The position numbers and the translations under genes were made by a program. Positions 40,320 through 59,050 of a stretch of DNA of 64,000 nt are shown one piece after another (position 1 is the stretch's first letter; each line of letters opens with the position of its first letter). The DNA is from an uncultured Acidobacteriota bacterium (GTDB lineage: Bacteria > Acidobacteriota > Terriglobia > Terriglobales > Acidobacteriaceae): assembly GCA_963849065.1 (NCBI GenBank), contig CAWKFM010000003.1, positions 44,292-108,291 of the forward strand, in the 5' to 3' direction. Under the pieces are notes generated by a model. That model ran no database searches and was not told where the DNA came from. It saw nothing but the letters and a program-made list of their open reading frames with translations.

Positions 40320-41738
40320 ATGCCGACACTGACGATCGATCCCGTTACCCGTATCGAGGGCCACGCCCGCATCACGTTGCAGCTGGACGAGCAGGGAGAG
40401 GTGCAGGACGCGCGCTTCCATGTGACCCAGGTGCGCGGCTTTGAAAAGCTCTGCGAAGGACGTCCCTTCACCGAGATGCCGGCGCTGATGGCGCGCATCT
40501 GCGGCATCTGTCCCACCAGCCACCTGCTGGCCTCCAGCAAGGCCTGCGATGAGATCATGGCGGTGCGCATCCCGGAGACGGCGGAGAAGCTGCGCCGCAT
40601 CATGAACCTGGCGCAGATCATTCAGTCCCACGCGCTCAGCTTCTTCTATCTCTCGTCGCCGGACTTTCTGTTGGGGATGGACGCCGATCCGGAGGAGCGC
40701 AACATCTTGGGCGTGGTGCGCAAGCATCCGGCGATGGCGCGCGACGGCATCAAGCTGCGCCAGTTCGGACAGCGCGTGCTGGAGAGTCTGGGCGGCAAGC
40801 GGATTCACCCAGGCTGGATCGTGCCCGGCGGCGTGAGCCATCCGCTGGAGGCCGCGCAGCGCGACCAGATTCTGGCCGAGCTTCCCGAAGCCATCCGCAT
40901 CACGCGCGCCACGCTGCACTGGTTCAAATCACAGATTGAAAGCTTCCACGCCGAAGTGCGCTCGTTCGCCAATTTTCCCTCGCTGTTCATGGCCTTGGCT
41001 AACGACGGCAACCAGCTGGCGGCCTACAGCGGCTGGCTGCGCTTCATGGACGCCAACCTGAACATCGTGGCCGACCACATCACCGGCCTCGATTACCAGA
41101 ACTACATCGGCGAATCCAGCAACGACGACTCGTATCTGAAATCCACCTACTTCAAGCCGCTCGGGCTGGCCGCGGGAATGTATCGCGTAGGACCGCTGGC
41201 GCGGCTGAACATGTGCCGGTCGGCGGGAACCCCGCAGGCCGACGAGGAGATGGCGGAGTTCCGCGAGCTGGAACACCACTCGGTTCTCAGCTCTTTCTAC
41301 TACCACTATGCACGGCTGATCGAGATCCTGTTCTCGCTGGAGCGCATGGAAACCCTGCTGCGCGATCCGGAAATTCTGGGCAAGAATGTGCGCGCGCATG
41401 CCTCGCCCAACAACTTCGAGGGCGTGGGCATCCTGGAAGCGCCGCGGGGCACGCTGATTCATCACTACCGCATCGACCAGAACGGATTGATCGAGTCGGC
41501 CAACCTGGTGATTGCAACCGGCCACAACAATCTTGCGATCAACCGTGGCGTTCTGCAGGTGGCGCGGCAGTTCGTGCGCGGCAACACGCTGGAGCAGGGC
41601 ATGCTGAATCGCGTGGAAGCCGTGGTGCGCGCCTTCGATCCCTGCCTGAGCTGCTCTACCCACGCCGCGGGCCAGATGCCTCTGCTGATCGAGCTAATGG
41701 GCGCCGATGGCACGGTATTGGACCGGCTGCGCCGGTAG
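40320..41738 (+). CDS. hoxH: [NiFe]-hydrogenase large subunit (group 3d-like)
   Basis: N-terminal [10 protein letters not shown] and C-terminal DPCLSCSTH Ni-Fe ligand motifs, with a C-terminal extension for proteolytic maturation. Confidence 0.95.
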
Positions 41739-42928: not shown

Positions 42929-43660
42929 ATGGCAGCGATTATTCAAGTCGAGAATGTCAGCAAGACCTATCGCATCGGGAAAGTGGACGTGCCGGCGGTG
43001 CGCGGCGTCTCCTTCGAGGTGGACAAAGGAGAATTTCTCAGCGTGGTGGGCCCATCGGGCAGCGGCAAGTCCACCCTCTTTTACATTCTCGGCGGACTGG
43101 CGCAGGCCGACTCCGGCCGCGTGCTCGTCGATGGCACCGACTTTGCCCGCACCTCGGACTCCGAGAGAACGCTACTGCGGCGGCGCAAGATCGGCTTCGT
43201 GTTCCAGAAGTTCAATCTGCTTCCGACCCTCACCGCCCGCGACAATATCAGGATCGCCCTCGACATCGCCGGCGAAAGCGCCAACCACGATGACGAATAC
43301 TTCCGCTATATCACCCAACTGCTCGGCATCGACAAGCGCCTCGATCACCGCCCCAGCGAGTTGAGTGGCGGCGAGCAGCAACGCGTGGCCCTGGCGCGTG
43401 CCCTCATTAATAAACCGGCCATCGTGCTGGCCGACGAGCCCACCGGAAATCTCGATACGCAGAATTCCAACGTGGTTCTGGATATGTTGCAACGCTCCAA
43501 CCGGGAGCTGGGCCAGACCGTGCTGATGATTACCCACAACCCAGAAGCGGCAAACTACGGCAACCGCATCCTGCACTTCCGCGACGGTCAGGTGGTCGCA
43601 CCGGAGTTGGACCCGCAGTGGACCGGTGCCCTGCACGAAGCGCCGCACGGCGGTCAGTAA
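42929..43660 (+). CDS. ABC transporter ATP-binding protein (LolD/MacB/FtsE-like), no adjacent permease
   Basis: Walker A GPSGSGKST, LSGGEQQRVALARAL, Walker B VLADEPTGNLD. Confidence 0.85.
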   Translation: MAAIIQVENVSKTYRIGKVDVPAVRGVSFEVDKGEFLSVVGPSGSGKSTLFYILGGLAQADSGRVLVDGTDFARTSDSERTLLRRRKIGFVFQKFNLLPTLTARDNIRIALDIAGESANHDDEYFRYITQLLGIDKRLDHRPSELSGGEQQRVALARALINKPAIVLADEPTGNLDTQNSNVVLDMLQRSNRELGQTVLMITHNPEAANYGNRILHFRDGQVVAPELDPQWTGALHEAPHGGQ

Positions 43661-43737: not shown

Positions 43738-43812
<75 letters not shown>

Positions 43813-43823
43813 GTAATTTCTAG

Positions 43824-43849
43824 AAACCCTCGCCTGCGCGCGAGGGTTT
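43824..43849 (+). terminator. hairpin between the two tRNA genes
   Basis: AAACCCTCGC-ctgcgc-GCGAGGGTTT. There is no clear T-tract, so the function is uncertain. Confidence 0.3.
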
Positions 43850-43906
43850 GCCGTGAGGGGCGCCTGCTCCTCGATTTTGTCCAGTCTTGCAGGATTCGCT
43901 GGAAGG

Positions 43907-43981
<75 letters not shown>

Positions 43982-44126
43982 AAATTCTCCCGCAAATAAC
44001 TGAAAGTGAATGCTTTCCAGAATTTCTCATGATCGGCCTCGTTGTGGCTGAATGGGGAAAAATTGGCCAAAATCAGGCACATTTTGGCTCGAAAGCGGAC
44101 AAAAAGCGGACAATGCTTTTTGCCCC

Positions 44127-45239
44127 TTAATTTTTGCGGGTTCCCTCACCTTGAGGTGCGAATTCGTCAGTATCCATGAGGGTTTGCTCATACTTCAGCA
44201 TCGCTTGCCGCTTGTGTTCAGCCGTGGGGTGGACATACCGCTGGACGATCCGGATGGAGCTGTGGCCGAGGATTGCCGCCAGCGTAGCCAGATCGACCCC
44301 AGCTTGGGCAAGTCTGGTTGCAAAGGTATGACGGAAGTCGTAGAGCACGAAATCGAGAGCCTTGAGGCCCTTCTTCTTGTCCACCTTGATGGCAGCATCG
44401 TGCCCCCGATTGAGACGCACGATGTGCTTTCCTGGCTTTGTAGGGGATGGAAATATCCAAGGCGAGTCCTTCTTCTTGGGGTTCTTTTCCATGCGACGGG
44501 CAAGGATCGACTTGCTCTCAGCCGTCAGGTCGAGCGTCCGCCTCGCCGCCTTGGATTTTCCTTGCCTGATATGGAGCTGTCCCCGTTCGAGGTCTATGTC
44601 TGCCTTGCCGAGGGACAGGACCTCCTCCGGACGCATACCCTGATTCCGCATCAGCCTCGCCAAATCCCAGAGATTCTTGTTTTTCGCGGCTCGCAGGAAG
44701 TAGTCCTTCTCTTCCGCTGCGGTTATTACGTGCATCCTGACCGCATCAGCATCAGACGGAATCTTGACGTTGCGAACGGGATTCTCTCGATGCCACCGTT
44801 GCTTGATTGCATATCGGAAGAACTTCGACAGTGCGTGAAGGTCATGCCGCAGAGTGATGTCGCGAACTTCATGCTCAGTGACTCGCCACGCCTTAAACGC
44901 TTCTACCCTGCCCTCATGAATCAGCGACACCGACTCCCTGCCAAAGAACATCTTTAGGCTCGTGAAGCTGGTCTCGATTCTCAGGAAGCTATTGGGGTGC
45001 GACCTGTGCTCCACCTTCACCCAGTCCAAGAAATCAGTGGCGGCGTCACTGAATTCGCGTACGACCATGTGCCGGGACGGATTTCGTCCCTCAGCCAAGG
45101 CAATGCGATGCTCAGCCTCGAGTTGCTTCGCTCGCGTCTCGTTTTGTTTCGTGGCGGCCAAGTCTGTCTTTCCGTTGTACTCCTTGCCTGCTACCTTGAA
45201 GCGGTAACTCCACTTCCCGCATCGCTTTCTCAGCGGCAT
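44127..45239 (-). CDS. int: tyrosine-type site-specific integrase
   Basis: C-terminal catalytic region (YDFRHTFATRLAQAG, LGHSSIRIVQRYVH) and an N-terminal SAM-like domain. ATG 45239 (GTG 45242 also in frame). Confidence 0.9.
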   Translation of the reverse strand: MPLRKRCGKWSYRFKVAGKEYNGKTDLAATKQNETRAKQLEAEHRIALAEGRNPSRHMVVREFSDAATDFLDWVKVEHRSHPNSFLRIETSFTSLKMFFGRESVSLIHEGRVEAFKAWRVTEHEVRDITLRHDLHALSKFFRYAIKQRWHRENPVRNVKIPSDADAVRMHVITAAEEKDYFLRAAKNKNLWDLARLMRNQGMRPEEVLSLGKADIDLERGQLHIRQGKSKAARRTLDLTAESKSILARRMEKNPKKKDSPWIFPSPTKPGKHIVRLNRGHDAAIKVDKKKGLKALDFVLYDFRHTFATRLAQAGVDLATLAAILGHSSIRIVQRYVHPTAEHKRQAMLKYEQTLMDTDEFAPQGEGTRKN

Positions 45240-45552
45240 CACTTGTCTCCTGTAGTCTCGTTTCCAGCCATGCGTCCACCCGATCTTTCGGATACCAGAT
45301 TCGTCGCCCCACCTTGAGGTAGGCGGGGCCCCTCCGCTGGCATCTCCAATCTGCTAGAGTCGCTGGCGATAAGCCCAAGTTCTGTGCCAGTTCCTCAGGC
45401 GAGATCAAACTATCAGGCAACACGAATAGACCTCGACCCAGTTTCCCCGCACCGGATGGCGGCTTTATGTTGAGCGGCTCAGAGGGACCGAACCTCGTTT
45501 CCATTGGTGGTGCCAACGACGCACCTACGACTGCTCCGCATCTGTGGTTCAC
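45112..45552 (-). CDS. xis: excisionase/AlpA-like helix-turn-helix DNA-binding protein
   Basis: ISPEELAQNLGLSPATLADWRCQRRGPAYLKVGRRIWYPKDRVDAWLE. Alternative start at 45504. The 3' end overlaps int by about 130 nt in another frame. Confidence 0.7.
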   Translation of the reverse strand: MNHRCGAVVGASLAPPMETRFGPSEPLNIKPPSGAGKLGRGLFVLPDSLISPEELAQNLGLSPATLADWRCQRRGPAYLKVGRRIWYPKDRVDAWLETRLQETSDAAEKAMREVELPLQGSRQGVQRKDRLGRHETKRDASEATRG

Positions 45553-46368: not shown

Positions 46369-46575
46369 AAATTTCCTCTCGGTTGGAAAACATACCATAC
46401 ATAGTCATTATATTCCTACAATGATTTTTATGTACGGGCTGGAGGGCCATCATTGGCAGGTGAAATCGCCGCGCGACTCCACACTACTCCGAGAATCGAT
46501 ACGCCGGATGACGGACGGCGGACTGGCGATGAGCGGGATGCGAGGTTTGCGTTAGTCTTAAGGGAGGAGACCGTG

Positions 46576-47397
46576 ATGCAGGAATCAGCCGCGTTGCCGC
46601 CTATCAATCCAGATTCGCTCCAGCAAACTGTCGACACCTTCCGTGTTTATTGCGGCGTTGTACTCCTATCATTCGCCCAGCATGGTCAGGGGCTTCGAGA
46701 GACTATCGCGCGAAGATTCGTCGCCAGAGGAATGATTTGCACGCAGAACATTTTGGCTGTATGGCGGGCCGGAAGCGAGCATGACGCCTGGATTCTCCAT
46801 CGGTCGCTAATCGACCGCCTTTTCCATCTTCGTTACCTGGGTGAAACGGGCGGGTTCTCTGAATTTGACGATTTTTCGTTTGCGTCATTATACGAAGCCC
46901 GGCAGCGGCTGCTGGCAGACCCAGACATGAGGAGCGAGCTTCCGGAAAGCCTGAAGGATACACAGCAACGAGACAAGGCGCGATACGAACAGATCCCTCC
47001 CAGGCAATCCCGATGGCGGCGTCCGAAAGCAAGGGACGTGGCAAAGCAGATGGATCTCTGCTTTCTATACTCGTGCGCTTACGATTCTGCCTCGGCTCAA
47101 ATCCATCCAACGTCCGATGAAGGCGACGCTGATTTCGAGATATTGACGAAGCCGTTAGGGACGGTTGCTCTTCCCAGCTCGATTGTCGTTACAAATTCAA
47201 TCCTCATTCACGCCATACTCGTTCAAGAAGCCCTGAATGTTAGCGAGATGCGCTGGCACTCCCTCGCCTATGATTTCCTAGACCATGTGCTTTTGTTTCT
47301 CAAAACCGGGGAACAGCGGTTTCAATCGACCATGCGTGAGATCGCTCAGTTCTGGCCCACATCGCCGCTTTGCAAGCCGCCCAGCGGCAAGAACTGA
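46576..47397 (+). CDS. hypothetical helical protein (273 aa), first gene of the unknown trio
   Basis: ATG 46576 lies 6 nt after GGGAGGAG. I recognise no confident family. There is a weak resemblance to AbiV/DUF5677-like helical proteins (ILHRSLIDRLFHLRYL ... YDSASAQIH). Confidence 0.6.
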   Translation: MQESAALPPINPDSLQQTVDTFRVYCGVVLLSFAQHGQGLRETIARRFVARGMICTQNILAVWRAGSEHDAWILHRSLIDRLFHLRYLGETGGFSEFDDFSFASLYEARQRLLADPDMRSELPESLKDTQQRDKARYEQIPPRQSRWRRPKARDVAKQMDLCFLYSCAYDSASAQIHPTSDEGDADFEILTKPLGTVALPSSIVVTNSILIHAILVQEALNVSEMRWHSLAYDFLDHVLLFLKTGEQRFQSTMREIAQFWPTSPLCKPPSGKN

Positions 47398-47523
47398 TCG
47401 ACACGGCTGCTGAGTTGGATGCCAATTCTCCGACGAACGCTGAGTTTAGCTGCCGCCGCCGTTACCGCCCGTTGATTGTCGGTAGGTTTGTCGTACCATT
47501 ATATCGGCCGCACATGGAGAATA

Positions 47524-48168
47524 ATGTCAAACCTTGATTGGTTCTTCCGCAGCAGCCGTTCCGCACCGAACCGTGGCGAACGTTTCAGCCAGCTCTACTT
47601 GCTACGTAGGGACATCGACACTTGTTTCGGAGTCAATCCAAATACAGGATTACCGTTCTGCGTCGTAGACCCGACCACAGGTGCGCGCACCAGCTGCGAG
47701 GCGATCTGGCCTGGCACGATGGCCATTCTTGCTGGCATTGACCTTCTTGGCAAGTTCCGTGCGGGGACCGACGTAACTCGGGGTCCGGGTAGTGTGAGTG
47801 TCAGGCAGCGATTCGTAGATTTTTCAAGGCTATATCTGAGTCTCTCGGAGACAGACGCATATCTGGTCTACCATCTGCGGAACTCGTTACTGCACTCGTT
47901 CGGTCTAAATTCCGAAAAGACAGACGACAAAGGCACAGTCACCGCGACGTACGACTTCATTCTTAGCCGCGGTGCGGGCAAGCTGCTTGAACATTTCACA
48001 AGCGACTTCTACCGCGTGGACGTGCAGTGTCTTCGTGACCTTTTCGAACGAGCTATTGCGAGGTACGAAGCCGAGCTACGTGACAATTCGCGCAGCGATT
48101 ACCAAGATCTTAATGATAAGTTCAATGCAATGTTTCCCAAGCACGCGAAGCCCATGAGCGTGATTTAG
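47524..48168 (+). CDS. hypothetical protein (214 aa) with an Rx4H HEPN-like motif
   Basis: ATG 47524 follows GGAGA. The motif YHLRNSLLHSFGL fits the HEPN R-x4-6-H signature. Confidence 0.6.
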   Translation: MSNLDWFFRSSRSAPNRGERFSQLYLLRRDIDTCFGVNPNTGLPFCVVDPTTGARTSCEAIWPGTMAILAGIDLLGKFRAGTDVTRGPGSVSVRQRFVDFSRLYLSLSETDAYLVYHLRNSLLHSFGLNSEKTDDKGTVTATYDFILSRGAGKLLEHFTSDFYRVDVQCLRDLFERAIARYEAELRDNSRSDYQDLNDKFNAMFPKHAKPMSVI

Positions 48169-48293: not shown

Positions 48294-51200
48294 ATGGCGC
48301 TTTCATTGGATGATCTAGTTAAGGACGGTAGGCTAGAACGGCTGTTTTCCAAGCACTGCCGCGACTGCGCTCTGCAGCTTTGGGTGCTACAGATAAAGTC
48401 CGACAACGGAATCGAGAACCGACTCCTCTACGGACGACTTCTTCCCTACAATTACTCTAACAACACTTGGTCCGCCGCGGAGGATGACCATTTTGAATCG
48501 GTTGGGGAGCACAAGGCTCAAATCATTCGACTCAGCCTGTACATCAAGAGCACCGGCACCGAGGCGTTACTGAAACATCTGAGTGAGGGCCACGCCGTGT
48601 CGCGCATCAGCGAGGACTTGAAGCTGACGCTGTCCCCGAAGCTAGCCGAGCGGATAGGAACGACAACGCTCAGTTCACACTTGGTTTATCGCCCAGTCGC
48701 CTACCTGCTGAATCGAGATTCGCGAGATCGAACCGCACCTTTGAGTCCACACGGGGGCGCGGGCGCATTCAGTGCATCTCTGACTCCAACCGATAAGATA
48801 GCATTGCTTCGCATTGGATCGGATTGTGATGAGGCTTTGGCGACATTTATTGTCAAACAGCTGGATTTCGACACTGGCTTGGACTTCGGGGACAGAGATC
48901 TCGGCCGATTAGGTGATTTGGAGCTGTTGGTCTTTCCGACCCTGGACGACAGCGAGCGGGAACTGTTGAGCGTGGGCTGGAAAGTAAAACCCAGAGTTCT
49001 CGCCGTGAAGCTGAATCCGATTCAACTCCCGCGCTATGACAGATTCCATGTCCGTCTGAGTGTATTCAACGACAGCCAACTCGTTCATTCAAGTATCGCA
49101 ACTGTCGAGTGCGTCGAGGGCCGTGAATTTGAGTGCGAGTTCGAGGTGCCTGAGCAACTGCGCACGGTTGTCGACGAAACGGAGGTCGAGATTCATGGAT
49201 CATCCTCGATCAACGACGACCGAACTTGCGATCTGTGTTGCAGATGGCGGGTCGGCTATGTACGGGAAATTACCGTCAACGGCCATGTGAACGGACGAGG
49301 AGGTGGCTCTGTCCGGCTCGGCTGGCTCGAAAAGGTGACAAAATCCGCAGCCGCTTCGAAACGGCTACAAGCGGCTCAGACCATCAATCAGGGAGGCACG
49401 GGGTTTTCGACTCACGTGGGAGACCGAAAGGCCGATCCATGGGTTCCCATTAACCGTGGCGTCAGATCACTATTTGCCCGAGTGCATCCGCCGCAGTCGG
49501 ACGGACGTTTTTTTGAACGTCTGAGCGAAGGCAGCGGCTTGGGACGCTTGGAGTTTGTGGAATGGGTAAAGGCCCTATTGGTTAGGCACCAAAATCATCA
49601 GGTCATAATTTTTGACCCTTTCTTTGAGGACGCAGGCATTGGACTCGTCGTTCCAAATGCGGGGAGCCACGGCGATTACATCGTTTTTACATCGCTGCCC
49701 AAGCCCGCAACGCAAGAAGCCAGCACTCGGATCAACAATCTGCTGGCTAGCTGCGAGCAGCTCAAGCCTTTGATGAGGGGGATCAGATTGCGCGTGTACG
49801 GTCTGAAGTACGGAACACTACACGACCGTTATTTCCTAATCGTCGGTCAGGACGGATTACCAACCGCCGGCTTCCATCTCTCGAACTCCATCCAAAAGGC
49901 AAATGAGAATTACCCTCTGCTGATTACGCCGATACCTCCTGACGTCTTGCTCAAGGTAAACAAATACGCGTCCAAACTTCTAACGCAAGCATTTGAGGCA
50001 TTTTCTAGTACCGAAGCCGATACTTCAAGGGTGCAGCTACTCTTCGACTCGAAAGCCGCGCTCGCTACGTCCCCTAAACGCATTGAACCGTTGAGGTTTC
50101 TCGACAAAGGCGTCGCTGGCGATGTCCTGGCCGGGTGGACGGGGGAGCAGTCGCTTCGGAGTTTGGAAGGCGACGCCCTTAGGGAGAAAATGAGGGACTT
50201 GGGCTTGCTGAACGGCGAATCGCTTGTTCTAAAGGAGGCCCCTGGGCTTAAGGGCTGCGTCGATCAACAGGCAGGGAACTTCACGAACTTCGGCGCCAAA
50301 TGGGACGTACTCGGCGAGATCCTGGCCAACTCGCATGCGGGAAATACGATCCATGCAGTCGAGCTATCGGCGGAAACGGATTTTCTGACCTTTTTGGCTG
50401 AGTTTTTGAGCGGCTCATTTGGTCGAGTACATAACGACGAGGTCGATGCACCAATCGCGCACGTCGCTAGCACCTACTTCAAAGACGCTATTGAAACGCT
50501 GCTTGCCGCATCCCATCAGCCTGAGCACTTTTTCCATCCCGTTAAGTACGCCGTCCTGAGCTGGTCGGAGTTCTTCGCCGTACAAATCCTGTGGCACCAC
50601 GCTCCAGCTGCATTACTTTCAATGACAGAAGCGCAAGCTGCAACAGTGCCGGAGGATAGTAGGCAATCCGATGCGGTTAAGCTTTCCTTGCTGAGTCAAA
50701 TAGTGAGTGAGATCGCACTCGGGGCGCAATTCGGACTTGCCGGCTTACAGCGGGACCGACTGATTTGCAGCCCCAATGGCTTACTTAAGTGGATGGGGCT
50801 GAATTCTCTCGAATCGCAGCTCCAAAAACCGAATGGCGTGCGCGAGGTCGTTCAATATACGGCGTCGTTCAGTCACAGGGAGAGGATACAGGTACTGGGT
50901 TGGATGACCCAACACTCTGCGGGGCGACAGAATGGCGAGACTATTTATCGTGGTCTGATCGATTCTCTCCATGAGGTTTTACCGCGGGCGCTAACCGCGG
51001 AGGATGCTGATCTCTTGGTGGATTCCATGCGCGGACATATGCGGGCCCTAGGCTGGGGTGAGCCATGGCTTTATCGGGACGTAATATCCCCTCTGTTCGT
51101 AGATGGACGCGTTTCCGCAGATGACCTTTGTCGTATTTGGGTCAAGGAGTTGCTCGCTTATTTGGAGCAAGCCCTCAGGGATGAAACGGGCATCTTCAAG

Positions 51201-51578
51201 AGAAGCGCAGAAGGCAGGGTCACAGAGGTAGCAGCGTTTCTGTTCGGTCGCAGCGGCCTTCAGCAGCAAAGGGAGAGCGTAAAGGTGCTTAGGTCAGTAC
51301 TCACCAGAGTTCGGCGAGACGTTCATCAGCCTCTAGCTAGTACGTCGAACTGGAACAAATGGAACATTTCCATAATCGTTGCAATGTGGATTTTCGCTTT
51401 TACGAAGTGGGCCGCGCACTTCCTGGTGAAGCCTAGCGAAATTGAACCGGAGCTAGAACGACTTTCAACTGACGCACGTCTCGTTGCCCTCGTCAGGCCG
51501 GTAATCGACTGGCAGTCAGACCGAGGTGTAGAGCCAGGCGCGCTTGCACAGTTTATAGAAGAAGTGGGGGCAATCTGA
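48294..51578 (+). CDS. large hypothetical protein (1094 aa) with a central MIT_C/PLD-fold-like module
   Basis: ATG follows GGAGAAG. The motif pair QVIIFDPFF ... GTLHDRYFLIVG resembles the xDPYx...HDRxI pair of the MITD1 C-terminal PLD-like domain (from memory). The large flanking N- and C-terminal regions are unassigned. Confidence 0.7.
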   Translation: MALSLDDLVKDGRLERLFSKHCRDCALQLWVLQIKSDNGIENRLLYGRLLPYNYSNNTWSAAEDDHFESVGEHKAQIIRLSLYIKSTGTEALLKHLSEGHAVSRISEDLKLTLSPKLAERIGTTTLSSHLVYRPVAYLLNRDSRDRTAPLSPHGGAGAFSASLTPTDKIALLRIGSDCDEALATFIVKQLDFDTGLDFGDRDLGRLGDLELLVFPTLDDSERELLSVGWKVKPRVLAVKLNPIQLPRYDRFHVRLSVFNDSQLVHSSIATVECVEGREFECEFEVPEQLRTVVDETEVEIHGSSSINDDRTCDLCCRWRVGYVREITVNGHVNGRGGGSVRLGWLEKVTKSAAASKRLQAAQTINQGGTGFSTHVGDRKADPWVPINRGVRSLFARVHPPQSDGRFFERLSEGSGLGRLEFVEWVKALLVRHQNHQVIIFDPFFEDAGIGLVVPNAGSHGDYIVFTSLPKPATQEASTRINNLLASCEQLKPLMRGIRLRVYGLKYGTLHDRYFLIVGQDGLPTAGFHLSNSIQKANENYPLLITPIPPDVLLKVNKYASKLLTQAFEAFSSTEADTSRVQLLFDSKAALATSPKRIEPLRFLDKGVAGDVLAGWTGEQSLRSLEGDALREKMRDLGLLNGESLVLKEAPGLKGCVDQQAGNFTNFGAKWDVLGEILANSHAGNTIHAVELSAETDFLTFLAEFLSGSFGRVHNDEVDAPIAHVASTYFKDAIETLLAASHQPEHFFHPVKYAVLSWSEFFAVQILWHHAPAALLSMTEAQAATVPEDSRQSDAVKLSLLSQIVSEIALGAQFGLAGLQRDRLICSPNGLLKWMGLNSLESQLQKPNGVREVVQYTASFSHRERIQVLGWMTQHSAGRQNGETIYRGLIDSLHEVLPRALTAEDADLLVDSMRGHMRALGWGEPWLYRDVISPLFVDGRVSADDLCRIWVKELLAYLEQALRDETGIFKRSAEGRVTEVAAFLFGRSGLQQQRESVKVLRSVLTRVRRDVHQPLASTSNWNKWNISIIVAMWIFAFTKWAAHFLVKPSEIEPELERLSTDARLVALVRPVIDWQSDRGVEPGALAQFIEEVGAI

Positions 51579-51599: not shown

Positions 51600-52826
51600 C
51601 TATGCGGCAGCCATGGGAATCACCTCACCGAACGGTGCCGGATGATCCTTGGTGGCCGCCCATAGGACTGGATGGTTCGGTGCGGCGTCTGGAAAGGAGC
51701 CCTCAAGGTCGGTGAAGACCACGAGCGCCTGCGGCTGGATCGAATGCTCCTCGATGTATTCAAAACAGGGGCAGAAGCTGGTCCCACCGCCGCCTACTGG
51801 TTCGAGCGTAATCGGCTCGCCCTGTTCGAAGACGGCGGCGTTATGGACCCTGGTGTCGAAGTAGAGGACATGCACCCGCTGGGGCCTCCGCTCCGAGATG
51901 ATGGAGTTCAGTTCATCCTGGAAAAGCCCGAGCTGGCGGCGGTTGATCGAGCCGGAGCAGTCCACGCCGACCACGATTTCACCCACGCCATCCTTGCGAA
52001 TGCTTGGCAGGTACAGGCCTGAGGCAATGTGGCGCCGGTTGGGAGACGACCAGGAGTAGTCCTCGGGGATTGCCGCGGCGAATGAATTCCGGAGTGCGGC
52101 CCGCCAGTCCACGGTTGCCCGATCCGCCGCCTCCACGGCACGGCGCATGCCGCCGGGAGCTTTGCCAGCCATGCGAGCGACCAATTCGGCCTGTTCAACA
52201 GCTCCGGTCCAGCTCATCTGCTGCTTCTCGATCTGGTCGCTGGTCGCCGACGCGCCTTCCTTGTCGGGGTTGGGCGCATCGATGACCTGGCCAAAACCGC
52301 CGTCCGTCACTGGAACCTTGTGCGCTGGAGCCCCTTCGTCTCCCTGGGCCGAAGGATCTCCGGACCCGGAATTCGTGGAGCCGTCGCCACTGCCGCCGGC
52401 AGCGTCGCCGTCTTTGTCCTCGGCGATCAAGTTGTAGATCCGCTCTGCGCTCAGGTTCCGAAATGCCGGATCATAGAGTGCACCGGCAGGGAGAGCGAGG
52501 TTTGCATCCCGAACGAGCGGGTTGATGGCGTAGTCGCAGGCGACGTTCCAGCGTTTTGCCGAACGCGTTCCCCGCCGGGTATGGTGTTGCAGTGCCGGAT
52601 GCATGACTTCGTGCGCCAAGCAGCCAAGCAGCTCCGGCGGCGTCAGTTTCGCCACGAATTCAGGGTTATAGAACAGGGAGACGCCATCGGTCGCCATGGT
52701 GTCGATCGATGGTGTCTCCACGTCCTTGAGCCGCAGAATCAGAACCCCAAAGAATGGGAAATCGAGCAGCAGTTTTGTCCGGCCTTGCTTGAGCCGCACG
52801 GCTGGGGAGAGTGTTCTTGCAGTCAT
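51600..52826 (-). CDS. VWA-domain protein with N-terminal putative metallopeptidase domain (DUF2201-like)
   Basis: HEVMHPALQHH (HExxH), VACDYAINP, and VWA MIDAS-like VGVDCSGSI. Alternative start at 52913. Confidence 0.75.
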   Translation of the reverse strand: MTARTLSPAVRLKQGRTKLLLDFPFFGVLILRLKDVETPSIDTMATDGVSLFYNPEFVAKLTPPELLGCLAHEVMHPALQHHTRRGTRSAKRWNVACDYAINPLVRDANLALPAGALYDPAFRNLSAERIYNLIAEDKDGDAAGGSGDGSTNSGSGDPSAQGDEGAPAHKVPVTDGGFGQVIDAPNPDKEGASATSDQIEKQQMSWTGAVEQAELVARMAGKAPGGMRRAVEAADRATVDWRAALRNSFAAAIPEDYSWSSPNRRHIASGLYLPSIRKDGVGEIVVGVDCSGSINRRQLGLFQDELNSIISERRPQRVHVLYFDTRVHNAAVFEQGEPITLEPVGGGGTSFCPCFEYIEEHSIQPQALVVFTDLEGSFPDAAPNHPVLWAATKDHPAPFGEVIPMAAA

Positions 52827-53099
52827 AAGTTGGCCCCGTGTGGTTGCTTCAGTTCTGGCAATGCGCTTGCCATTCTGATTCGTATTTGGTTGGTGATGTC
52901 TGGGATACAACAAAAGTGGACTTCCAAATCATTGGCGGGCTGTAGTCTATTCGTGCGAACAGTAAATCACGCGGTCCCAGCGAGTAGCTTCCTGTTTTTG
53001 CCCGTCTTAGCAGAACTGCTCACACTAATGTGATTTTGTGTAATTCCTTTTTGTCGTTGCAGAGTATTATTATTTTTTCCAAAAAAGTGATAGGGAGTC

Positions 53100-54923
53100 A
53101 TGATTGAACATCTTAGTGTGAGCCGTGCAGCCTATTTCTACAGGCGCAAGAAGCGTTTCTCAAATGTCGCGATCGACACGCTTTTTAAGACGCTGCGGTC
53201 GAATGCCAGTACGCCTTCAAGGAACTTATTCCGGGTCGATCGCGTTGCGTTCAGGAACTCGAGATATTCTGCAATATGCTTTTCGTTCGAGCGTTCTCCC
53301 GCATTCCTCGACAACGAAGCCGAAGTTATTGAGTGTATCTTCGGGTTTTTACTGATCGTGGAGAAAGGCGATTTCGTAGCCGTTCTTAAGTCAGGTCTCG
53401 ATCTCCCCTCGGCCTTCAAGTCTAATTATCTCGACAAGGTCGGCAGCGAGCGGGTCGAGCGCGCCATCGCCCGACATGATGCGGTCTTCGAGAAGCTGCG
53501 ACTTAAGAATATGTCTACTTCGAAGCTCGCGCTGCGCTCCAAGACGCTTGAGGCCACTGATCTGGTAAATGCGGTGGCGACGTCAAGCGCCAGCCGCTTC
53601 GCGCCGCAGGGCTACAGTGTGCGGCGGTCCGATGGTACCTATTCGGCGACGCCTAGTACGGGACGTATCTCTATCCGCGCTGACCGGGCAGGCTACGAGG
53701 AGATTGTACGTTGGGCCAGCGAGGTTATGGATTTGCTCGCAGCCGACAGTGGAGAGATCTCGGCCTTCATCCGAAACTTCGCTCGACCGATCGACCTGTC
53801 TGCGATCCCCAGTGGCGTGAGACCAACTTATGTTGCAATCGACGTGCCGAGTCTTGCCAGCGTTTTGTTGGAGGCGGGGGAACGTACCGTCCGGCTTGTT
53901 CGGCAAAATCAAAGCAGCTTCGTCGAAATGACCAAGGTCGAGATCGATCACATTCTCGAGGAACTCGACCGAAGCTTCCCCATACAGCCCGAGCAGATAC
54001 AGAACCATATTGTGCATCCGGACGACCAAGCTCGAATCGGCTTGGTTAAAGTGGGCAAGACGCGAATCTCCCTGCCAAGCTTCACGCTGCCCCTGTTAAC
54101 GAGTATTTTCGTTGAAAATGCCGCCCTTCCGGTTGGGGCCGACCCCGACCGCAGGCCACTCACCCGCTATCTCGATCGCGAAGACCTTTTCACCGTCCTC
54201 TTCAACGATTTCGCGCTCGCTTACATTGATGGCTCCTTGTACCGGGACGAGGCGCTCCTCGGCGGAGGCATGGACTTTCTTCGCCATCTACAAGCGGCGC
54301 TTCCGCTTGCCCAAACGACCAGCGAGAAAGGAGAATTCGCTGCTGGCCAAGAAGCATTTGACGATACGTCGGTATTTCGGGCCATCGTCGACGACATTGC
54401 ACGCGACGCTGATGTGCTGCTGTGCGATGACCTTGGCGACGAGTGGGCAGACTTTATCGGTATCAGCACCGTGACTCGTCCTGTGATGGTTAGTTTCTAC
54501 CACGCCAAGCATGGGGAGAGATCGCTCAGCGCCTCAGCCTTTCATGATTCAGTGGGACAGGCAATTAAGAATCTCGGGCGCATGACGCTGCCATCTGAGG
54601 CCATGCCAGCCAAATATGCGTCTTGGGAGACGCCCTATCGCGGCGCCGGGGCAGTAACCGCAATCCCAAGAATGATACGCGGCGGTGGACGGTTAGAGAT
54701 TGAACATAAGATTCAGGAGGTACGTAGCGCGCCAGACCTGCTAAAACGGGTCTTTATTGTCACTTCGTCGCTGAGCCGAGCGCAGGTCGAGTACGCCTTC
54801 ACAGCCGCTGCTGCGGGCGAGCCACTTTCGGCACACTTCGTCCAGCTTTATTGGTTGCTCATGTCCTACTTCTCTGCTTGCACTGAGATCGGTGCGATTG
54901 GCTATGTTGTGTGTCAGCCTTGA
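53100..54923 (+). CDS. hypothetical protein (607 aa) with a PD-(D/E)xK-like C-terminal signature
   Basis: ATG follows AGGGAG in an AT-rich divergent promoter region. VLLCDDLGDEWADFIGIS-x12-VSFYHAKHG fits D...(E/H)xK nuclease cores. The overall architecture recalls the 'sporadically distributed' TIGR04141/DUF6119 family (memory only). Confidence 0.65.
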   Translation: MIEHLSVSRAAYFYRRKKRFSNVAIDTLFKTLRSNASTPSRNLFRVDRVAFRNSRYSAICFSFERSPAFLDNEAEVIECIFGFLLIVEKGDFVAVLKSGLDLPSAFKSNYLDKVGSERVERAIARHDAVFEKLRLKNMSTSKLALRSKTLEATDLVNAVATSSASRFAPQGYSVRRSDGTYSATPSTGRISIRADRAGYEEIVRWASEVMDLLAADSGEISAFIRNFARPIDLSAIPSGVRPTYVAIDVPSLASVLLEAGERTVRLVRQNQSSFVEMTKVEIDHILEELDRSFPIQPEQIQNHIVHPDDQARIGLVKVGKTRISLPSFTLPLLTSIFVENAALPVGADPDRRPLTRYLDREDLFTVLFNDFALAYIDGSLYRDEALLGGGMDFLRHLQAALPLAQTTSEKGEFAAGQEAFDDTSVFRAIVDDIARDADVLLCDDLGDEWADFIGISTVTRPVMVSFYHAKHGERSLSASAFHDSVGQAIKNLGRMTLPSEAMPAKYASWETPYRGAGAVTAIPRMIRGGGRLEIEHKIQEVRSAPDLLKRVFIVTSSLSRAQVEYAFTAAAAGEPLSAHFVQLYWLLMSYFSACTEIGAIGYVVCQP

Positions 54924-55357: not shown

Positions 55358-56716
55358 ATGCGCACCCGTAGGAGCGAATGCGTGAGCCTTTACAACGACC
55401 AACAAGAGTTCCTGCGCAGCTTACGCGATCTGATCGAGAACCGTCATCGCAAGTTCGCGGGTGCGCAGTTTAGAGTTGCGTTCGTCCGCGATGAAAAAGG
55501 TGTAAACCAATTCCTCACCGGATGCGCACTGTTGCTTGAAAATCAAGCAATCTCCCGTCCTGCACAGGACTATAGGTACATTGTATTGGCGGAGGAGTGG
55601 GTAGAGGGTGACGAGGCAGTCCTGCACAGGATCGAACAGATTGTCAGCGGCACAGGAGCAATCGCTAATGCAGCGGTGGGCCGCACATTTACGCACGCCA
55701 CGCTGACGCGCAAGTTTGATGCGGCTATACGGGGATGGGGAGGTTGGGAATTCTCTAGTCGCGTGGACCACACAGCCCAGGAGCGGGAGACTTACCTGCG
55801 TCAAGAACCATTGCTTGCGTTTGGGCTGAGGCCCTATAACTCTGCTTTCGAGGCCATCCTAAGATGGGTTTTCGAGGAAAAGAACACCGATTTCTATCCG
55901 CCTGGAAACAGAGCTCCGAACCAAGGCGAGTTTCTTACACTGGTCGCCGACACGCGTGCTCGGATCGTGAGGGCTGAGTGGCTGCCAGGTCTCGTCAACG
56001 CCGAAGTTGAACTGGGAGTCGATCCAAGAGAGGTTGAGGCTCAGTTTCTATTTGCAGGGGCGGAAGACGATACCCGTACACTGAACACGGGTTCGCTCTC
56101 CTTAAAGTGTGAAGTCCCGGAAGGCACGCGCACCACGAGGCTCATGCTGGTCCATTCGACCAATGACTGTATCTCTAAGATCCTACTGAATGGAGAGTAC
56201 GACACATACGGACCTCAGCCGTTGGCTCTCAGTGCAATCAGAAAAGCAGAGCTCGACCTGAAAGAAGGTGAAAACGACCATGTGGAATATAAACCATGGG
56301 TTTCGCCAAAGTCTCCGGAGAAGGAAGCAGAGCTCGTCGAAACAATCATCGCATTTGCCAACACTGGTGGTGGACGGCTTTATGTTGGAGCCGCGGATAG
56401 CGGCAACCCACTCGGTGACACGGCTCTGTCGAAAGCGTTCAAGGTTGAATCCGATATGGCCGCGATCCAGCAGGCTGAGAGAATCAAGAGCCTCAAACGC
56501 GAGAAGATAAAGCCAGTGCCCCCGGTCCGAGTGGAACTGATCACGGTTTTTGGCGAGCGCCTAGTTCTAGTTGAAGTCGAGCGCGGGAGCAGGCGACCAT
56601 ATTCAACATTTGAAAACAAAGTATTCGTCCGCAAGGGCGGGAGTAACAGGCTCGCGGATCCACACTCGGAGCTTCCCGCCCTCAGCCCACAGTCTCTGCT
56701 GCCGGATGGCTCCTGA
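55358..56716 (+). CDS. hypothetical protein (452 aa) with a C-terminal AlbA_2 (Schlafen-like, 'divergent AAA') domain
   Basis: EGENDHVEYKPW...ETIIAFANTGGGRLYVGA...RPYS...VFVRKGGSN matches the AlbA_2 pattern. The ~300-aa N-terminal region is unassigned. Confidence 0.65.
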   Translation: MRTRRSECVSLYNDQQEFLRSLRDLIENRHRKFAGAQFRVAFVRDEKGVNQFLTGCALLLENQAISRPAQDYRYIVLAEEWVEGDEAVLHRIEQIVSGTGAIANAAVGRTFTHATLTRKFDAAIRGWGGWEFSSRVDHTAQERETYLRQEPLLAFGLRPYNSAFEAILRWVFEEKNTDFYPPGNRAPNQGEFLTLVADTRARIVRAEWLPGLVNAEVELGVDPREVEAQFLFAGAEDDTRTLNTGSLSLKCEVPEGTRTTRLMLVHSTNDCISKILLNGEYDTYGPQPLALSAIRKAELDLKEGENDHVEYKPWVSPKSPEKEAELVETIIAFANTGGGRLYVGAADSGNPLGDTALSKAFKVESDMAAIQQAERIKSLKREKIKPVPPVRVELITVFGERLVLVEVERGSRRPYSTFENKVFVRKGGSNRLADPHSELPALSPQSLLPDGS

Positions 56717-58039: not shown

Positions 58040-59050
58040 CTACGCGAGTAAATCGCTGTGAGTGATGGCGAATTGGGTGAATTCGGGGGTGGTCGCAATG
58101 GCCGGGTCACGGAGCAGAGCATCGCGCATGGACAGGACCTGCAGCTCATCCGGAAGACGCTCGAGGTAGAGCTTCGCCTTCGCAATCGAGCTATCAGTGA
58201 TGCGGCGGCCGAGTGCGGTGGCAATTGCAATCTGGGCCGACGGATCGCTGGGCAAGGGCGCGCCGGTTGGGTTCAGGAGAATCTCGTCAATCGAAGGCAG
58301 GGCGTGAAAAAGGTTAAGGAAGCCGATGAACTCCGCGGCTACGCCGTCACCCACTGCGCCTTGAATAAGGTGCATGAGCAGCATCTCGTAGACGTCCGCG
58401 GTGACGTTGGCCTTCCGGGCGTCAATTCCGTCCATCGCCCTGGATACCATTTCCCAGGAGCGCGGCGTCGGCCAGGCGTTGACACCCGACCGCACGGCCG
58501 AGTCGTGCAACAACTCCGTCCGGAAGCGAAGAAATGCGATGATTTCCGGCCTGATCCCTGCCTTGCCGGCCCAGATGCACCACTCGCCGAGATCCGGTTC
58601 CAGCGTGAGATGCAGGAAGCGGTTGAGCAAAGGGCGCGGCATGGAATAGCTGACGCCACGCTCGGAAGCGGGATTGCCCGCGGCAAGCACCGACCATCCA
58701 TCGGGGAGCCGATAGTCGCCAAGCGCACGATCGAGAACGAGCTGATAGCAGGCGGCCTGCGTCATCGGTGGCGCGGAGGTCAATTCATCGAGAAAGAGTA
58801 TGCCCTCGCCGCCTGTGGGGAGGAAATTCGGCGTGATCCATTCCGTGCGGTCGTCCTTGATGCGCGGCAGACCACGGAAGTCGACGGGATCGAGCTGGAC
58901 GGCGCGTACATCAATAAAGTCGCGCTTCAACTGCTGCGCGACCTGCTTAACGAGTTGGGATTTGCCGACGCCACAGGCGCCCCAGATATGGAGCGCAACG
59001 TTTTGAGGGACTGCGGTGATAAGCGCTTCAACAAGGTGCGAAGGTTTCAT
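58040..59050 (-). CDS. MoxR/CbbQ-like AAA+ ATPase (AAA_5)
   Basis: Walker A GACGVGKS, Walker B ILFLDELT, and AAGNP followed by the sensor region. Confidence 0.85.
   Translation of the reverse strand: MKPSHLVEALITAVPQNVALHIWGACGVGKSQLVKQVAQQLKRDFIDVRAVQLDPVDFRGLPRIKDDRTEWITPNFLPTGGEGILFLDELTSAPPMTQAACYQLVLDRALGDYRLPDGWSVLAAGNPASERGVSYSMPRPLLNRFLHLTLEPDLGEWCIWAGKAGIRPEIIAFLRFRTELLHDSAVRSGVNAWPTPRSWEMVSRAMDGIDARKANVTADVYEMLLMHLIQGAVGDGVAAEFIGFLNLFHALPSIDEILLNPTGAPLPSDPSAQIAIATALGRRITDSSIAKAKLYLERLPDELQVLSMRDALLRDPAIATTPEFTQFAITHSDLLA

What the first reader, a model, noticed from the sequence alone, without database searches (positions are those of the whole stretch)
48294..51578. 1094-aa orphan protein with a MIT_C/PLD-fold-like core
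QVIIFDPFFEDAG and, about 70 aa later, GTLHDRYFLIVG reproduce the xDPYx...HDRxI spacing I remember from the MITD1 C-terminal phospholipase-D-like domain and its prokaryotic relatives. The rest of the protein (N-terminal ~460 aa, C-terminal ~500 aa, largely helical) has no motif I can place. A membrane- or nucleic-acid-targeting effector with large sensor regions is plausible.
Basis: inference. Interest (0 to 1): 0.7.

Follow-up and report, generated by a model that had tools for sequence, protein, structure and literature searches.

The report
Juno-family defence protein, PLD-like core
This 1094-residue gene is not an orphan: it belongs to the VPA1262 ("Juno") family, which was recently shown to protect bacteria from phages, and its most conserved part is a phospholipase-D-type domain resembling human MITD1 that most likely acts as the nuclease of the system.

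Summary
The protein is not an orphan. It matches NCBIfam NF040699 "VPA1262 family protein" end to end (1077 bits, cut-off 325) and has hundreds of full-length relatives. [quoted passage not shown] It gave no domain or mechanism.

- An AF2 model of residues 400-575 (pLDDT 83.6) has MITD1's MIT_C domain as its best PDB match (E 7.6e-5). Tdp1, BfiI, Zucchini, PLD3 and PPK1 follow.
- At about 20% identity, only W424, D441, P442, H510, D511, R512, S530 and S532 remain invariant.
- Divergent cores hit the PADLOC models for Menshen NsnC (19 of 32) and PDC-S05 (18 of 32).
- Pfam MIT_C and PLDc thresholds are not met.

The gene stands alone in a low-GC island next to tRNA-Cys and an integrase, among other defence genes. 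The most likely mechanism is a single-chain sensor-effector with an HDR-type PLD nuclease. It probably needs to dimerise, and the fast-evolving helical C-terminus probably acts as the sensor. This is a new member of a known family, with a testable mechanistic lead.

The parts
48294..51578 (+). Complete gene for a 1094-aa VPA1262/Juno-family protein, including the stop codon
   Evidence: ORF list and translation. NCBIfam NF040699 at 1077 bits covers residues 26-1033. Homologues align over 100% of the length from residue 1.
48294..49283 (+). N-terminal beta-rich domain (aa 1-330), function unknown; possibly regulatory or target-binding
   Evidence: AF2 secondary structure and pLDDT mostly 65-92. 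Weak Foldseek resemblance to beta-sandwich domains of complement C3 and GH2 enzymes. Invariant W30, Y46, W59, S151, S160, D202, R205, E210 and P215. No similarity to the PLD core.
49284..49538 (+). Linker (aa 331-415) that is conserved but predicted with low confidence
   Evidence: pLDDT below 50 over residues 322-419, yet W344, L345, R357, W383 and S402 are invariant.
49539..50003 (+). MIT_C-like PLD-fold core (aa 416-570), the putative catalytic effector domain
   Evidence: Core AF2 model pLDDT 83.6, pTM 0.81. Foldseek PDB top hits are MITD1, Tdp1, PPK1, BfiI, Zucchini and PLD3. Viral library top hits are PLD phosphodiesterase proteins. Mean pairwise identity is 40%, against 18-26% for the other regions. 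PADLOC NsnC and PDC-S05 HMM hits.
49599..49637 (+). Motif 1, QVIIFDPFFEDAG (aa 436-448): beta2 strand followed by invariant D441-P442
   Evidence: Its position matches the 'conserved Asp/Glu after beta2' of MIT_C-type domains.
49812..49847 (+). Motif 2, GTLHDRYFLIVG (aa 507-518): invariant H510-D511-R512 immediately before beta5
   Evidence: Corresponds to the 'HDR motif before beta5' and to the HxK position of the canonical PLD HKD motif (the latter is inference).
49878..49943 (+). Motif 3, LSNSIQKANENYPLLITPIPPD (aa 529-550): invariant S530, N531, S532, Q534, P541-P548 and D550
   Evidence: Equating it with the GSxN part of the HKD motif is inference.
50004..51575 (+). C-terminal all-helical domain (aa 571-1094), fast-evolving; putative sensor or specificity domain
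   Evidence: AF2 predicts it all-helical with pLDDT mostly 75-94. Weak resemblance to ARM/HEAT solenoids. Lowest conservation, 18% pairwise identity. tblastn to the full-length cyanobacterial family members aligns only residues 1-577.
43738..43981 (+). tRNA-Gly(GCC) and tRNA-Cys(GCA), the likely integration site and left border of the island that carries the gene
   Evidence: ARAGORN. GC falls from about 0.63 to about 0.55 just downstream.
44127..45242 (-). Tyrosine recombinase/integrase of the island
   Evidence: Pfam Phage_integrase E 5e-26 and NCBIfam Xer/integrase models.

Best explanation
The gene encodes a stand-alone, single-protein anti-phage defence factor of the VPA1262 ('Juno') family, carried on a tRNA-targeted integrative island. 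Its effector is the central HDR-type PLD-fold domain (aa 416-570), which resembles MITD1's MIT_C domain. D441, H510, R512 and S530/N531 are proposed to form half of a phosphodiesterase active site. Because the chain holds only one such lobe, two protomers would have to pair to complete the site, as in Nuc, BfiI and Zucchini. The enzyme would then cut nucleic acid, most likely DNA, during infection. The beta-rich N-terminal domain and the rapidly diverging helical C-terminal domain would keep the enzyme off until they recognise a phage cue. Shown here: family membership, the PLD fold, extreme conservation of the motif residues, single-gene organisation and mobile/defence context. Shown in the literature for homologues: phage protection. 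Inferred: nuclease chemistry, dimerisation, and the sensor role of the C-terminus.
For: Family: NF040699 at 1077 bits against a cut-off of 325; 432+ full-length homologues; 441 clusters at 50% identity, the top 150 with the same architecture. Defence: the Juno preprint reports more than 100-fold protection by the P. agglomerans and V. parahaemolyticus members. Fold: core model pLDDT 83.6; best PDB hits are MITD1 at E 7.6e-5, then Tdp1, PPK1, BfiI, Zucchini, PLD3 and Streptomyces PLD; the viral library gives PLD phosphodiesterases; the full-length model also finds PPK1, BfiI and Tdp1 with prob 1.00. Catalytic-type conservation: seven of the eight columns invariant at about 20% identity are D441, P442, H510, D511, R512, S530 and S532; 24 of 44 invariant residues lie in aa 441-558; the core has 40% pairwise identity against 18-26% elsewhere. 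Link to defence effectors: the NsnC HMM is hit by 19 of 32 cores (best 1.1e-6) and by the query itself at E 0.009 over aa 420-517; PDC-S05 is hit by 18 of 32 (best 1e-9). NsnC's PB-PLD1 domain is described as a MIT_C-like predicted nuclease with the same Asp plus HDR site. PDC-S05 protects against T7, T5 and T4. Nuclease precedent: DruE's MITD1-like PLD domains degrade ssDNA, and D1740A, D1917A and R1918A abolish defence. Stand-alone: the neighbours differ in every locus examined. Mobile/defence context: tRNA plus integrase plus a GC drop; PDC-S71, Schlafen/AlbA_2 and HepT-like genes nearby; conjugative plasmids. Single lobe: no second PLD-like region by hhalign. Soluble: no conserved transmembrane segment.
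Against: No biochemical data exist for any family member, and the Juno preprint gives no mechanism. Sequence-level links to Pfam MIT_C and PLDc are at noise level. Individual NsnC and PDC-S05 hits are mostly weak, at E 0.003-0.04. TM-scores to PLD structures are moderate, 0.4-0.57. MITD1, the closest structure, binds membranes and has no demonstrated catalytic activity. The canonical HKD lysine is replaced by arginine, and the H-to-S/N spacing differs from classical HKD. I could not inspect model coordinates, so whether D441, H510, R512 and S530 cluster in space was not verified. This particular protein was not tested for defence, and its identity to the two tested proteins was not measured. 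Dimerisation and the sensing role are analogies only.
Confidence: 0.6

Rival explanations
1. The PLD-like core targets membranes or lipids rather than nucleic acid. As in MITD1 it would bind acidic phospholipids, or it would hydrolyse phospholipid or cardiolipin. Defence would then work by damaging or remodelling the membrane (abortive infection) or by interfering with phage processes at the envelope.
For: MITD1, the best structural match, is known as a membrane-binding PLD fold, according to the title of Hadders et al. 2012 as cited. Classical PLDs and poxvirus F13-type proteins also appear among the hits. The query clade has a hydrophobic helix at aa 1027-1045 with a Kyte-Doolittle score of 1.77.
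Against: That hydrophobic helix is not conserved. The aligned segment is polar or amphipathic in divergent members, and only 17 of 61 have any window at or above 1.6, at scattered positions. The sequence-level relatives are predicted or proven nucleic-acid effectors: NsnC PB-PLD1 and DruE. Most of the structural hits after MITD1 are nucleases or DNA phosphodiesterases: Tdp1, BfiI, Zucchini and PLD3.
Confidence: 0.15
2. The HDR domain is a non-catalytic ligand-binding or oligomerisation module, for example for a nucleic-acid end, a nucleotide signal or a phage protein. The real effector activity would lie in the N-terminal beta-rich domain or the helical C-terminus, or the protein would act by sequestration or steric blocking.
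For: No enzymatic activity has been shown for MITD1. The HKD lysine is replaced by arginine. The N-terminal domain also has invariant polar residues (S151, S160, D202, R205, E210) of unknown role.
Against: An invariant His-Asp-Arg plus Asp plus Ser-Asn-Ser constellation at 20% identity is typical of an active site. The equivalent residues are required for DruE's nuclease activity and defence. No known effector fold was detected in the N- or C-terminal regions.
Confidence: 0.15
3. The gene is not a defence gene in this organism. It would be a different kind of island cargo, such as an interbacterial toxin or T6SS-associated effector (the founding member lies next to the T6SS effector VPA1263), or a DNA-processing enzyme of the mobile element itself.
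For: The founding member lies in VPaI-6 within the vpa1254-vpa1262 segment next to vpa1263. Juno was found in T6SS effector hotspots. The family often sits next to integrases and on conjugative plasmids.
Against: Two family members expressed alone in E. coli protect against four phages. No secretion marker, immunity gene or conserved partner accompanies the gene in any locus. No T6SS genes were seen among the island genes examined here. The mobile elements that carry it are of unrelated types, so a housekeeping role for the element is unlikely.
Confidence: 0.05

Closest known systems
VPA1262 family (NCBIfam NF040699) = 'Juno' anti-phage defence system (bioRxiv 10.64898/2026.08.01.741415)
   Same: Full-length match over residues 26-1033 at 1077 bits. 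Same length of about 1100 aa, same domain order, same invariant residues, single-gene organisation, and location in variable regions, islands and plasmids.
   Different: This copy comes from an unidentified bacterium with about 63% GC whose closest relatives are Smithella and Syntrophorhabdales MAGs at 64-66% identity. It has not been tested. Its identity to the two tested proteins was not measured; Enterobacterales and Erwiniaceae homologues are 37-48% identical.
MIT_C domain of human MITD1 (Pfam PF16565; PDB 2YMB, 4A5Z)
   Same: Best structural match. Same strand/helix order, Asp after beta2 (DPY versus DPF), HDR before beta5, and about 70-residue spacing between the two.
   Different: No significant sequence-profile match. 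MITD1 is a 249-aa eukaryotic ESCRT-III-binding cytokinesis protein with an N-terminal MIT domain. It is known to bind membranes, and no catalysis has been shown. After HDR, the VPA1262 core carries LSNSxQ...PLLxTPIPxD where MITD1 has GRGLDYF.
PB-PLD1 effector domain of Menshen NsnC (PADLOC PDLC03880; PMC12065111)
   Same: Direct HMM similarity covering DP[YF] through HDR (19 of 32 cores; query E 0.009). Described as MIT_C-like with the same predicted catalytic Asp plus HDR. Serves as an anti-phage effector module.
   Different: NsnC is a protein of about 240 aa with a ParB-like N-terminus that works in a three-gene system with NsnA and NsnB. Here the domain sits in the middle of a 1094-aa single-gene protein.
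PDC-S05 (PADLOC candidate with a RhuM-type domain; validated in 10.1101/2024.09.26.614923)
   Same: HMM similarity of the core to profile positions of about 195-279 of 306 (18 of 32 cores, best 1e-9). A single-gene system that protects against T7, T5 and T4.
   Different: It is a protein of about 300 aa with a Virulence_RhuM N-terminal part. It has no equivalent of the VPA1262 N-terminal or C-terminal domains.
DruE of type III Druantia (bioRxiv 10.64898/2026.05.13.724313)
   Same: MITD1-like PLD domains form the nuclease site. The Asp, the His..Arg and the Ser residues lining the pocket resemble D441, H510/R512 and S530, and their mutation abolishes defence.
   Different: DruE has two PLD lobes in one chain fused to an SF2 helicase, is driven by ATP, and works with partner proteins. 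The VPA1262 protein has one lobe and no NTPase motif. No direct sequence comparison was made here.
Single-HKD PLD nucleases (Nuc, BfiI, Zucchini/PLD6)
   Same: Same fold. One catalytic lobe per chain, which implies a homodimeric active site.
   Different: The canonical HxK(x)4D(x)6GSxN motif is replaced by HDR...(x17)SNS. There is an extra invariant Asp after beta2. No significant sequence similarity.

Membership tests
VPA1262 family (NCBIfam NF040699) / Juno | Whole-protein score above the curated cut-off of the NF040699 HMM, with end-to-end coverage | tested here: met
   1077 bits against a cut-off of 325; residues 26-1033 match profile positions 1-1025 of 1026. The N-domain model NF040700 scores 415 bits against a cut-off of 80.
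VPA1262 family (NCBIfam NF040699) / Juno | Shared architecture and length (about 1100 aa, core domain at about residue 400) with other family members | tested here: met
   Homologues cover 98-100% of the query. The 150 representatives listed place the core at about residues 390-440 of proteins of about 1050-1170 aa.
VPA1262 family (NCBIfam NF040699) / Juno | Confers protection against phages when expressed alone | not testable with these tools
   Shown only for the P. agglomerans and V. parahaemolyticus members. Transferred to this protein by homology.
VPA1262 family (NCBIfam NF040699) / Juno | Single-gene system with no conserved partner | tested here: met
   Six unrelated neighbourhoods examined.
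PLD superfamily (fold level) | PLD-type alpha/beta fold of the core domain | tested here: met
   Foldseek with the pLDDT 83.6 model gives MITD1, Tdp1, PPK1, BfiI, Zucchini, PLD3 and PLD at prob 0.97-1.00 and E 7.6e-5 to 1e-2. Viral PLD proteins are also found. This rests on a predicted structure, not an experimental one.
PLD superfamily (canonical HKD enzymes; Pfam PLDc, PLDc_2) | HxK(x)4D(x)6GSxN motif and a Pfam PLDc/PLDc_2 match | tested here: not met
   The sequence has H510-D-R512 with Arg in place of Lys, and S530-N531-S532 at different spacing. The query has no Pfam hit at E<=10. Only 1 of 32 cores hits PLDc_2, at E 0.0012.
MIT_C (Pfam PF16565) | Significant match to the PF16565 HMM or to a MIT_C profile | tested here: not met
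   No hit for the query. 1 of 32 cores hits at E 0.0098. hhalign gives prob 2.3% against a single sequence and prob 16%, P 0.0016 against a vertebrate profile.
MIT_C (Pfam PF16565) | Conserved Asp/Glu after beta2 and an HDR motif before beta5 on a PLD fold | tested here: met
   In the core model beta2 is aa 436-440 followed by D441, and H510-D511-R512 immediately precede beta5 at aa 513-517. These residues are invariant. The definition is taken from PMC12065111.
MIT_C (Pfam PF16565) | Closest structural neighbour is MITD1's C-terminal domain | tested here: met
   2ymb_C at E 7.6e-5; 4a5z with TMq 0.51 and TMt 0.56-0.57. These rank 1-3.
Menshen NsnC PB-PLD1-type effector domain | Match to the NsnC HMM over its C-terminal PLD-like part | tested here: inconclusive
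   The query hits at E 0.0092 (aa 420-517 against profile positions 122-210 of 242). 19 of 32 family cores hit, best 1.1e-6, always in the same profile region. This indicates domain homology. The protein is not a member of the Menshen system, since it has no ParB domain and no NsnA or NsnB neighbours.
PLD-type nuclease (function) | Phosphodiester cleavage of nucleic acid that depends on the motif histidine | not testable with these tools
   Inferred from DruE and from the predicted NsnC nuclease.

The most novel reading that the evidence does not exclude
HDR-type (MIT_C-like) PLD domains may form a distinct and widespread class of immune phosphodiesterase modules shared by Juno, Menshen NsnC, PDC-S05/RhuM-like proteins, BrxL and DruE. 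Juno would be its only known single-lobe, NTPase-free, self-contained sensor-effector form. It would be switched on by induced dimerisation when its hypervariable helical domain binds a phage component. By extension, eukaryotic MITD1 would descend from such a prokaryotic immune enzyme and might itself be catalytic.
Probability: 0.3. Interest if true: 0.7.

Novelty: new member of a known kind. Interest (0 to 1): 0.5.

Why it matters
The Juno/VPA1262 family has just been shown to defend against phages, but no domain, active site or mechanism has been published. This analysis locates the functional centre of the family in a 155-residue HDR-type PLD domain. It names the residues to mutate (D441, H510, R512, S530/N531), predicts a dimeric nuclease with a fast-evolving sensor domain, and connects Juno by sequence to effector modules in Menshen and PDC-S05 and by structure to DruE and MITD1. 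That makes the mechanism of a widespread single-gene immune system directly testable. It also adds a data point to the open question of whether MIT_C domains, including human MITD1's, are enzymes. For annotating this window, it replaces an apparent orphan with a known defence gene inside a tRNA-linked defence island.

Tried and rejected
- Pfam on the full protein at E<=10 found nothing.
- PADLOC on the full protein found nothing.
- phmmer and profile hmmsearch against PDB sequences gave only calsequestrin noise.
- hhalign of the family against the single MITD1 sequence gave prob 2.3%, in the wrong region.
- The MITD1 homologue search returned only vertebrate orthologues, so the MIT_C profile was shallow.
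- A literature search for 'MIT_C' was swamped by 'MitC' (mitomycin C).
- I looked for an att direct repeat of the tRNA-Cys 3' end and found none within the window, so the right border of the island probably lies beyond 64000.
- I looked for a conserved operon partner, including the upstream 230-aa ORF at 47476-48168 and DUF5677. These were not seen in the other loci examined; they were compared by product length and Pfam, not by sequence.
- A second, degenerate PLD lobe in the N- or C-terminal domains is not supported.
- A conserved transmembrane helix is not supported.
- Promoter and terminator scans were at chance level.
- There are no phage-encoded homologues in INPHARED.
- The exhaustive representative search listed only the top 150 hits, all from the same family. 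The distant tail (E 1e-24 to 1e-3), which might have shown other architectures, could not be examined.
Full report
OBSERVATION

The ORF at 48294-51578 on the + strand is real. It starts with ATG, encodes 1094 aa and is the only long ORF at that position. Homologues align from residue 1 to the end, so the start codon is correct.

NOT AN ORPHAN

NCBIfam, however, matches end to end. NF040699 'VPA1262 family protein' scores 1077 bits (cut-off 325) over residues 26-1033, and NF040700 'VPA1262 N-terminal domain' scores 415 bits over residues 76-564.
- A word-indexed search of 5.8 billion proteins found 432 relatives among 8000 scored candidates. The 120 best listed are mostly 1085-1181 aa (five are truncated) and 47-100% identical.
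- An exhaustive HMMER search with the core profile found 441 clusters at 50% identity. The top 150 have the domain at about residue 400 of a protein of about 1100 aa.
- A pattern-seeded scan of 185,579 species genomes gave 85 confirmed loci. These are in Alpha-, Beta- and Gammaproteobacteria, Smithella, Syntrophorhabdales, Chlorobi, Acidobacteria and a few others, so the distribution is sporadic, as expected for horizontally moving cargo.
- Five plasmids, four of them conjugative, carry the gene, and PGAP annotates four of the five as 'VPA1262 family protein'. No phage record carries it.

WHAT IS KNOWN ABOUT THE FAMILY

VPA1262 is a gene of V. parahaemolyticus island VPaI-6, a GMT mobile element. 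A preprint of August 2026 found a family member in a Pantoea agglomerans T6SS-effector hotspot and renamed the family Juno. [quoted passage not shown] The paper states that the function of the family was unknown. Its main text contains no mention of a PLD domain, nuclease, AlphaFold or abortive infection. The biological role is therefore already known for the family, but the mechanism is not.

TESTING THE PLD / MIT_C IDEA

Structure
- A full-length AF2 model has mean pLDDT 74.3 and pTM 0.48. It shows a beta-rich N-terminal domain (aa about 24-330), a low-confidence stretch (322-419), an alpha/beta core (416-568) and an all-helical C-terminus (about 600-1094).
- Foldseek of the whole model against the PDB gave weak E-values. 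Among its highest-probability hits were the PLD-superfamily proteins PPK1, BfiI and Tdp1, all at prob 1.00.
- A model of residues 400-575 alone is confident (pLDDT 83.6, pTM 0.81). Its top PDB hits are the MITD1 C-terminal domain (2ymb_C at E 7.6e-5; 4a5z with TM 0.51-0.57; prob 1.00). Yeast and human Tdp1, PPK1, BfiI, Zucchini/PLD6, PLD3 and Streptomyces PLD follow.
- The viral structure library independently returns PLD phosphodiesterase-domain proteins, PPK C-terminal domain 1 and poxvirus F13-type proteins.
- In the model, D441 directly follows beta2 (aa 436-440) and H510-D511-R512 directly precede beta5 (aa 513-517). This is exactly how the MIT_C-type site is described for NsnC PB-PLD1, MITD1 and BrxL in PMC12065111.

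Conservation
- In 40 close homologues the motifs are invariant.
- In 38 genomic homologues down to 27% identity, 24 of 44 invariant residues lie between 441 and 558. They include D441, P442, H510, D511, R512, G526, L529, S530, N531, S532, Q534 and the PLLxTPIPxD segment.
- In 61 cluster representatives only about 16-28% identical to the query, just eight columns remain invariant: W424, D441, P442, H510, D511, R512, S530 and S532.
- Mean pairwise identity in that set is 40% for the core, 23.5% for the N-domain, 26% for the linker and 18% for the helical C-terminus. The core holds 23 of the 34 columns conserved at 90% or more.

Sequence-profile links
- Links to Pfam are at noise level. One of 32 divergent cores hits PLDc_2 (E 0.0012) and one hits MIT_C (E 0.0098), while an unrelated family scores 3.7e-4.
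- hhalign against the single MITD1 sequence fails. I verified that sequence as identical to PDB 2ymb.
- hhalign against a shallow vertebrate MIT_C profile gives P 0.0016 and prob 16%, but it aligns DPF with DPY and HDR with HDR in register over 97 columns.
- The PADLOC library gives a clearer signal. The Menshen NsnC model is hit by 19 of 32 cores (best E 1.1e-6) and by the query itself (E 0.0092; aa 420-517 against profile positions 122-210 of 242). PDC-S05 is hit by 18 of 32 (best 1e-9), always over the same C-terminal profile regions.

Taken together, the core is a PLD-fold domain of the MIT_C/HDR type. It does not meet the formal Pfam thresholds for MIT_C or PLDc, and it lacks the canonical HxK...GSxN signature.

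MECHANISM

The strongest precedent for chemistry is DruE of Druantia. Its two MITD1-like PLD domains form a pocket lined by Asp, His, Asp-Arg-Tyr, His..Arg and Ser. Of the mutations tested, D1740A abolishes ssDNA degradation in vitro, and D1740A, D1917A and R1918A abolish defence. By analogy, D441, H510, R512 and S530/N531 here would form a phosphodiesterase site; this is inference.

The protein has only one such lobe. hhalign finds no second PLD-like region in the N-terminal, linker or C-terminal parts (best P 0.012). A complete PLD-type site would therefore need two protomers, as in Nuc, BfiI, Zucchini and the MITD1 dimer. This follows from established knowledge of the superfamily and was not tested here.

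No NTPase motif or other effector domain was detected. The helical C-terminus evolves fastest, and tblastn to the full-length cyanobacterial family members aligns only residues 1-577. That fits a role in recognising variable phage components.

The hydrophobic helix at 1027-1045 is specific to the query's clade and is not a conserved transmembrane segment. This argues against an integral membrane protein and slightly against the membrane-targeting rival. I could not read the model coordinates, so I did not verify that the conserved residues cluster in space.

CONTEXT IN THE WINDOW

- GC content falls from about 0.63 to about 0.55 downstream of about 42-44 kb.
- tRNA-Gly and tRNA-Cys lie at 43738-43981, followed by a tyrosine integrase at 44127-45242(-).
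- The island also carries a DUF5677 gene, a DUF2201 metallopeptidase/VWA gene that converges on the Juno gene, a strong PDC-S71 homologue (E 9e-119), a Schlafen/AlbA_2 protein, a MoxR-like AAA ATPase, a HepT-like RNase and an HTH protein.
- No att repeat was found inside the window.
- The neighbours of homologues differ in every locus examined. These were a radical-SAM gene; a prophage/polyvalent-protein region in Methylomagnum; a Type III R-M system in Smithellaceae; and NERD, toxin-antitoxin and integrase genes on an Agrobacterium plasmid. The gene is therefore self-contained, consistent with the single-gene activity reported for Juno.

VERDICT

The 'orphan' label is wrong. The locus is a new member of the known VPA1262/Juno defence family. 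What this analysis adds is a specific, testable mechanistic hypothesis (an HDR-type PLD nuclease with a variable sensor domain) and links to Menshen NsnC, PDC-S05, DruE and MITD1.

Interest is moderate, at 0.5. The family and its role are already described, but its mechanism is open, and the result touches the unresolved question of whether MIT_C domains are enzymes.

Noticed in passing
window 53100-54923 (+): A 607-aa protein matches the PADLOC candidate defence family PDC-S71 over its full length (E 9.3e-119). It has no Pfam or NCBIfam hit. It is a second uncharacterised candidate defence gene, about 1.5 kb downstream of the Juno gene.
   Followed up: partly
window 43738-45242: tRNA-Gly(GCC) and tRNA-Cys(GCA) are followed directly by a tyrosine integrase on the minus strand, and GC drops from about 0.63 to about 0.55. 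This marks the left end of an integrative island. No att direct repeat was found up to 64000, so the right end is probably outside the window.
   Followed up: partly
window 51600-52913 (-) and 58040-59050 (-): A DUF2201 putative metallopeptidase plus VWA-like protein converges on the Juno gene, with the two stop codons 22 nt apart. A MoxR-like AAA ATPase lies 5 kb away. I recall that these two usually occur as an adjacent pair (not checked here), but in this window they are separated by PDC-S71 and a Schlafen/AlbA_2 gene.
   Followed up: no
window 55358-56716 (+): A 452-aa protein has a C-terminal Schlafen/AlbA_2 domain (E 4.8e-19). From my recollection this domain is common in defence islands. 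Its N-terminal 300 aa have no hit.
   Followed up: no
window 59411-59962 (-), 59751-60059 (-), 60274-60954 (-): A HepT-like (HEPN) RNase toxin (E 5.6e-21) has an overlapping upstream 102-aa ORF that could be its MNT antitoxin; this ORF was not checked. An HTH_31/HTH_3 regulator follows. Together they look like a probable toxin-antitoxin module in the same island.
   Followed up: no
window 46453-48168 (+): A DUF5677 protein (314 aa) and an unannotated ORF of 230 aa (called as 214 aa on the identical Logan contig L001) lie just upstream on the same strand as the Juno gene. They were not seen next to the homologues in the other loci examined, so they are probably separate cargo.
   Followed up: partly
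homologues P0026, P0029, P0034, P0054, P0056, P0069 and locus L021 (insertion after the 'SLPK' loop, query aa about 470): Several Beta- and Gammaproteobacterial family members carry an insert of about 50 aa. It is a degenerate tandem copy of the helix-strand-HDR segment, for example NLAASCAYIHHLLIRIKLRIYGLKERQLDDRSIPL, and the HDR is often decayed to DDR, HER, PDH or HDH. This looks like a partial internal duplication of the catalytic strand.
   Followed up: no
window 48294-51578, protein aa 136-161 and 322-419: Two segments are predicted with very low confidence (pLDDT below 50) but contain invariant residues: the SPHGGAGAFSAS loop (S151, P152, S160), and W344, L345, R357, W383 and S402. They may become ordered only on oligomerisation or ligand binding. 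Their role is unexplained.
   Followed up: no
L005 (Methylomagnum ishizawai AP019783.1, 2807638-2826985): Here the family member sits between Arc-like repressors and a region encoding a phage portal protein, a Zeta toxin, InPase, Apex, and LPD1-type polyvalent proteins of about 1600 aa. So a prophage or conjugative-element cargo region carries Juno.
   Followed up: no
window 40320-41738 (+) and 42929-43660 (+): A NiFeSe-type hydrogenase large subunit and an ABC-transporter ATPase lie in the high-GC core genome just before the tRNAs. The nearest Juno homologues come from Smithella and Syntrophorhabdales MAGs. These are hints that the host is an anaerobic Desulfobacterota-like bacterium, but the organism was not identified.
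   Followed up: no
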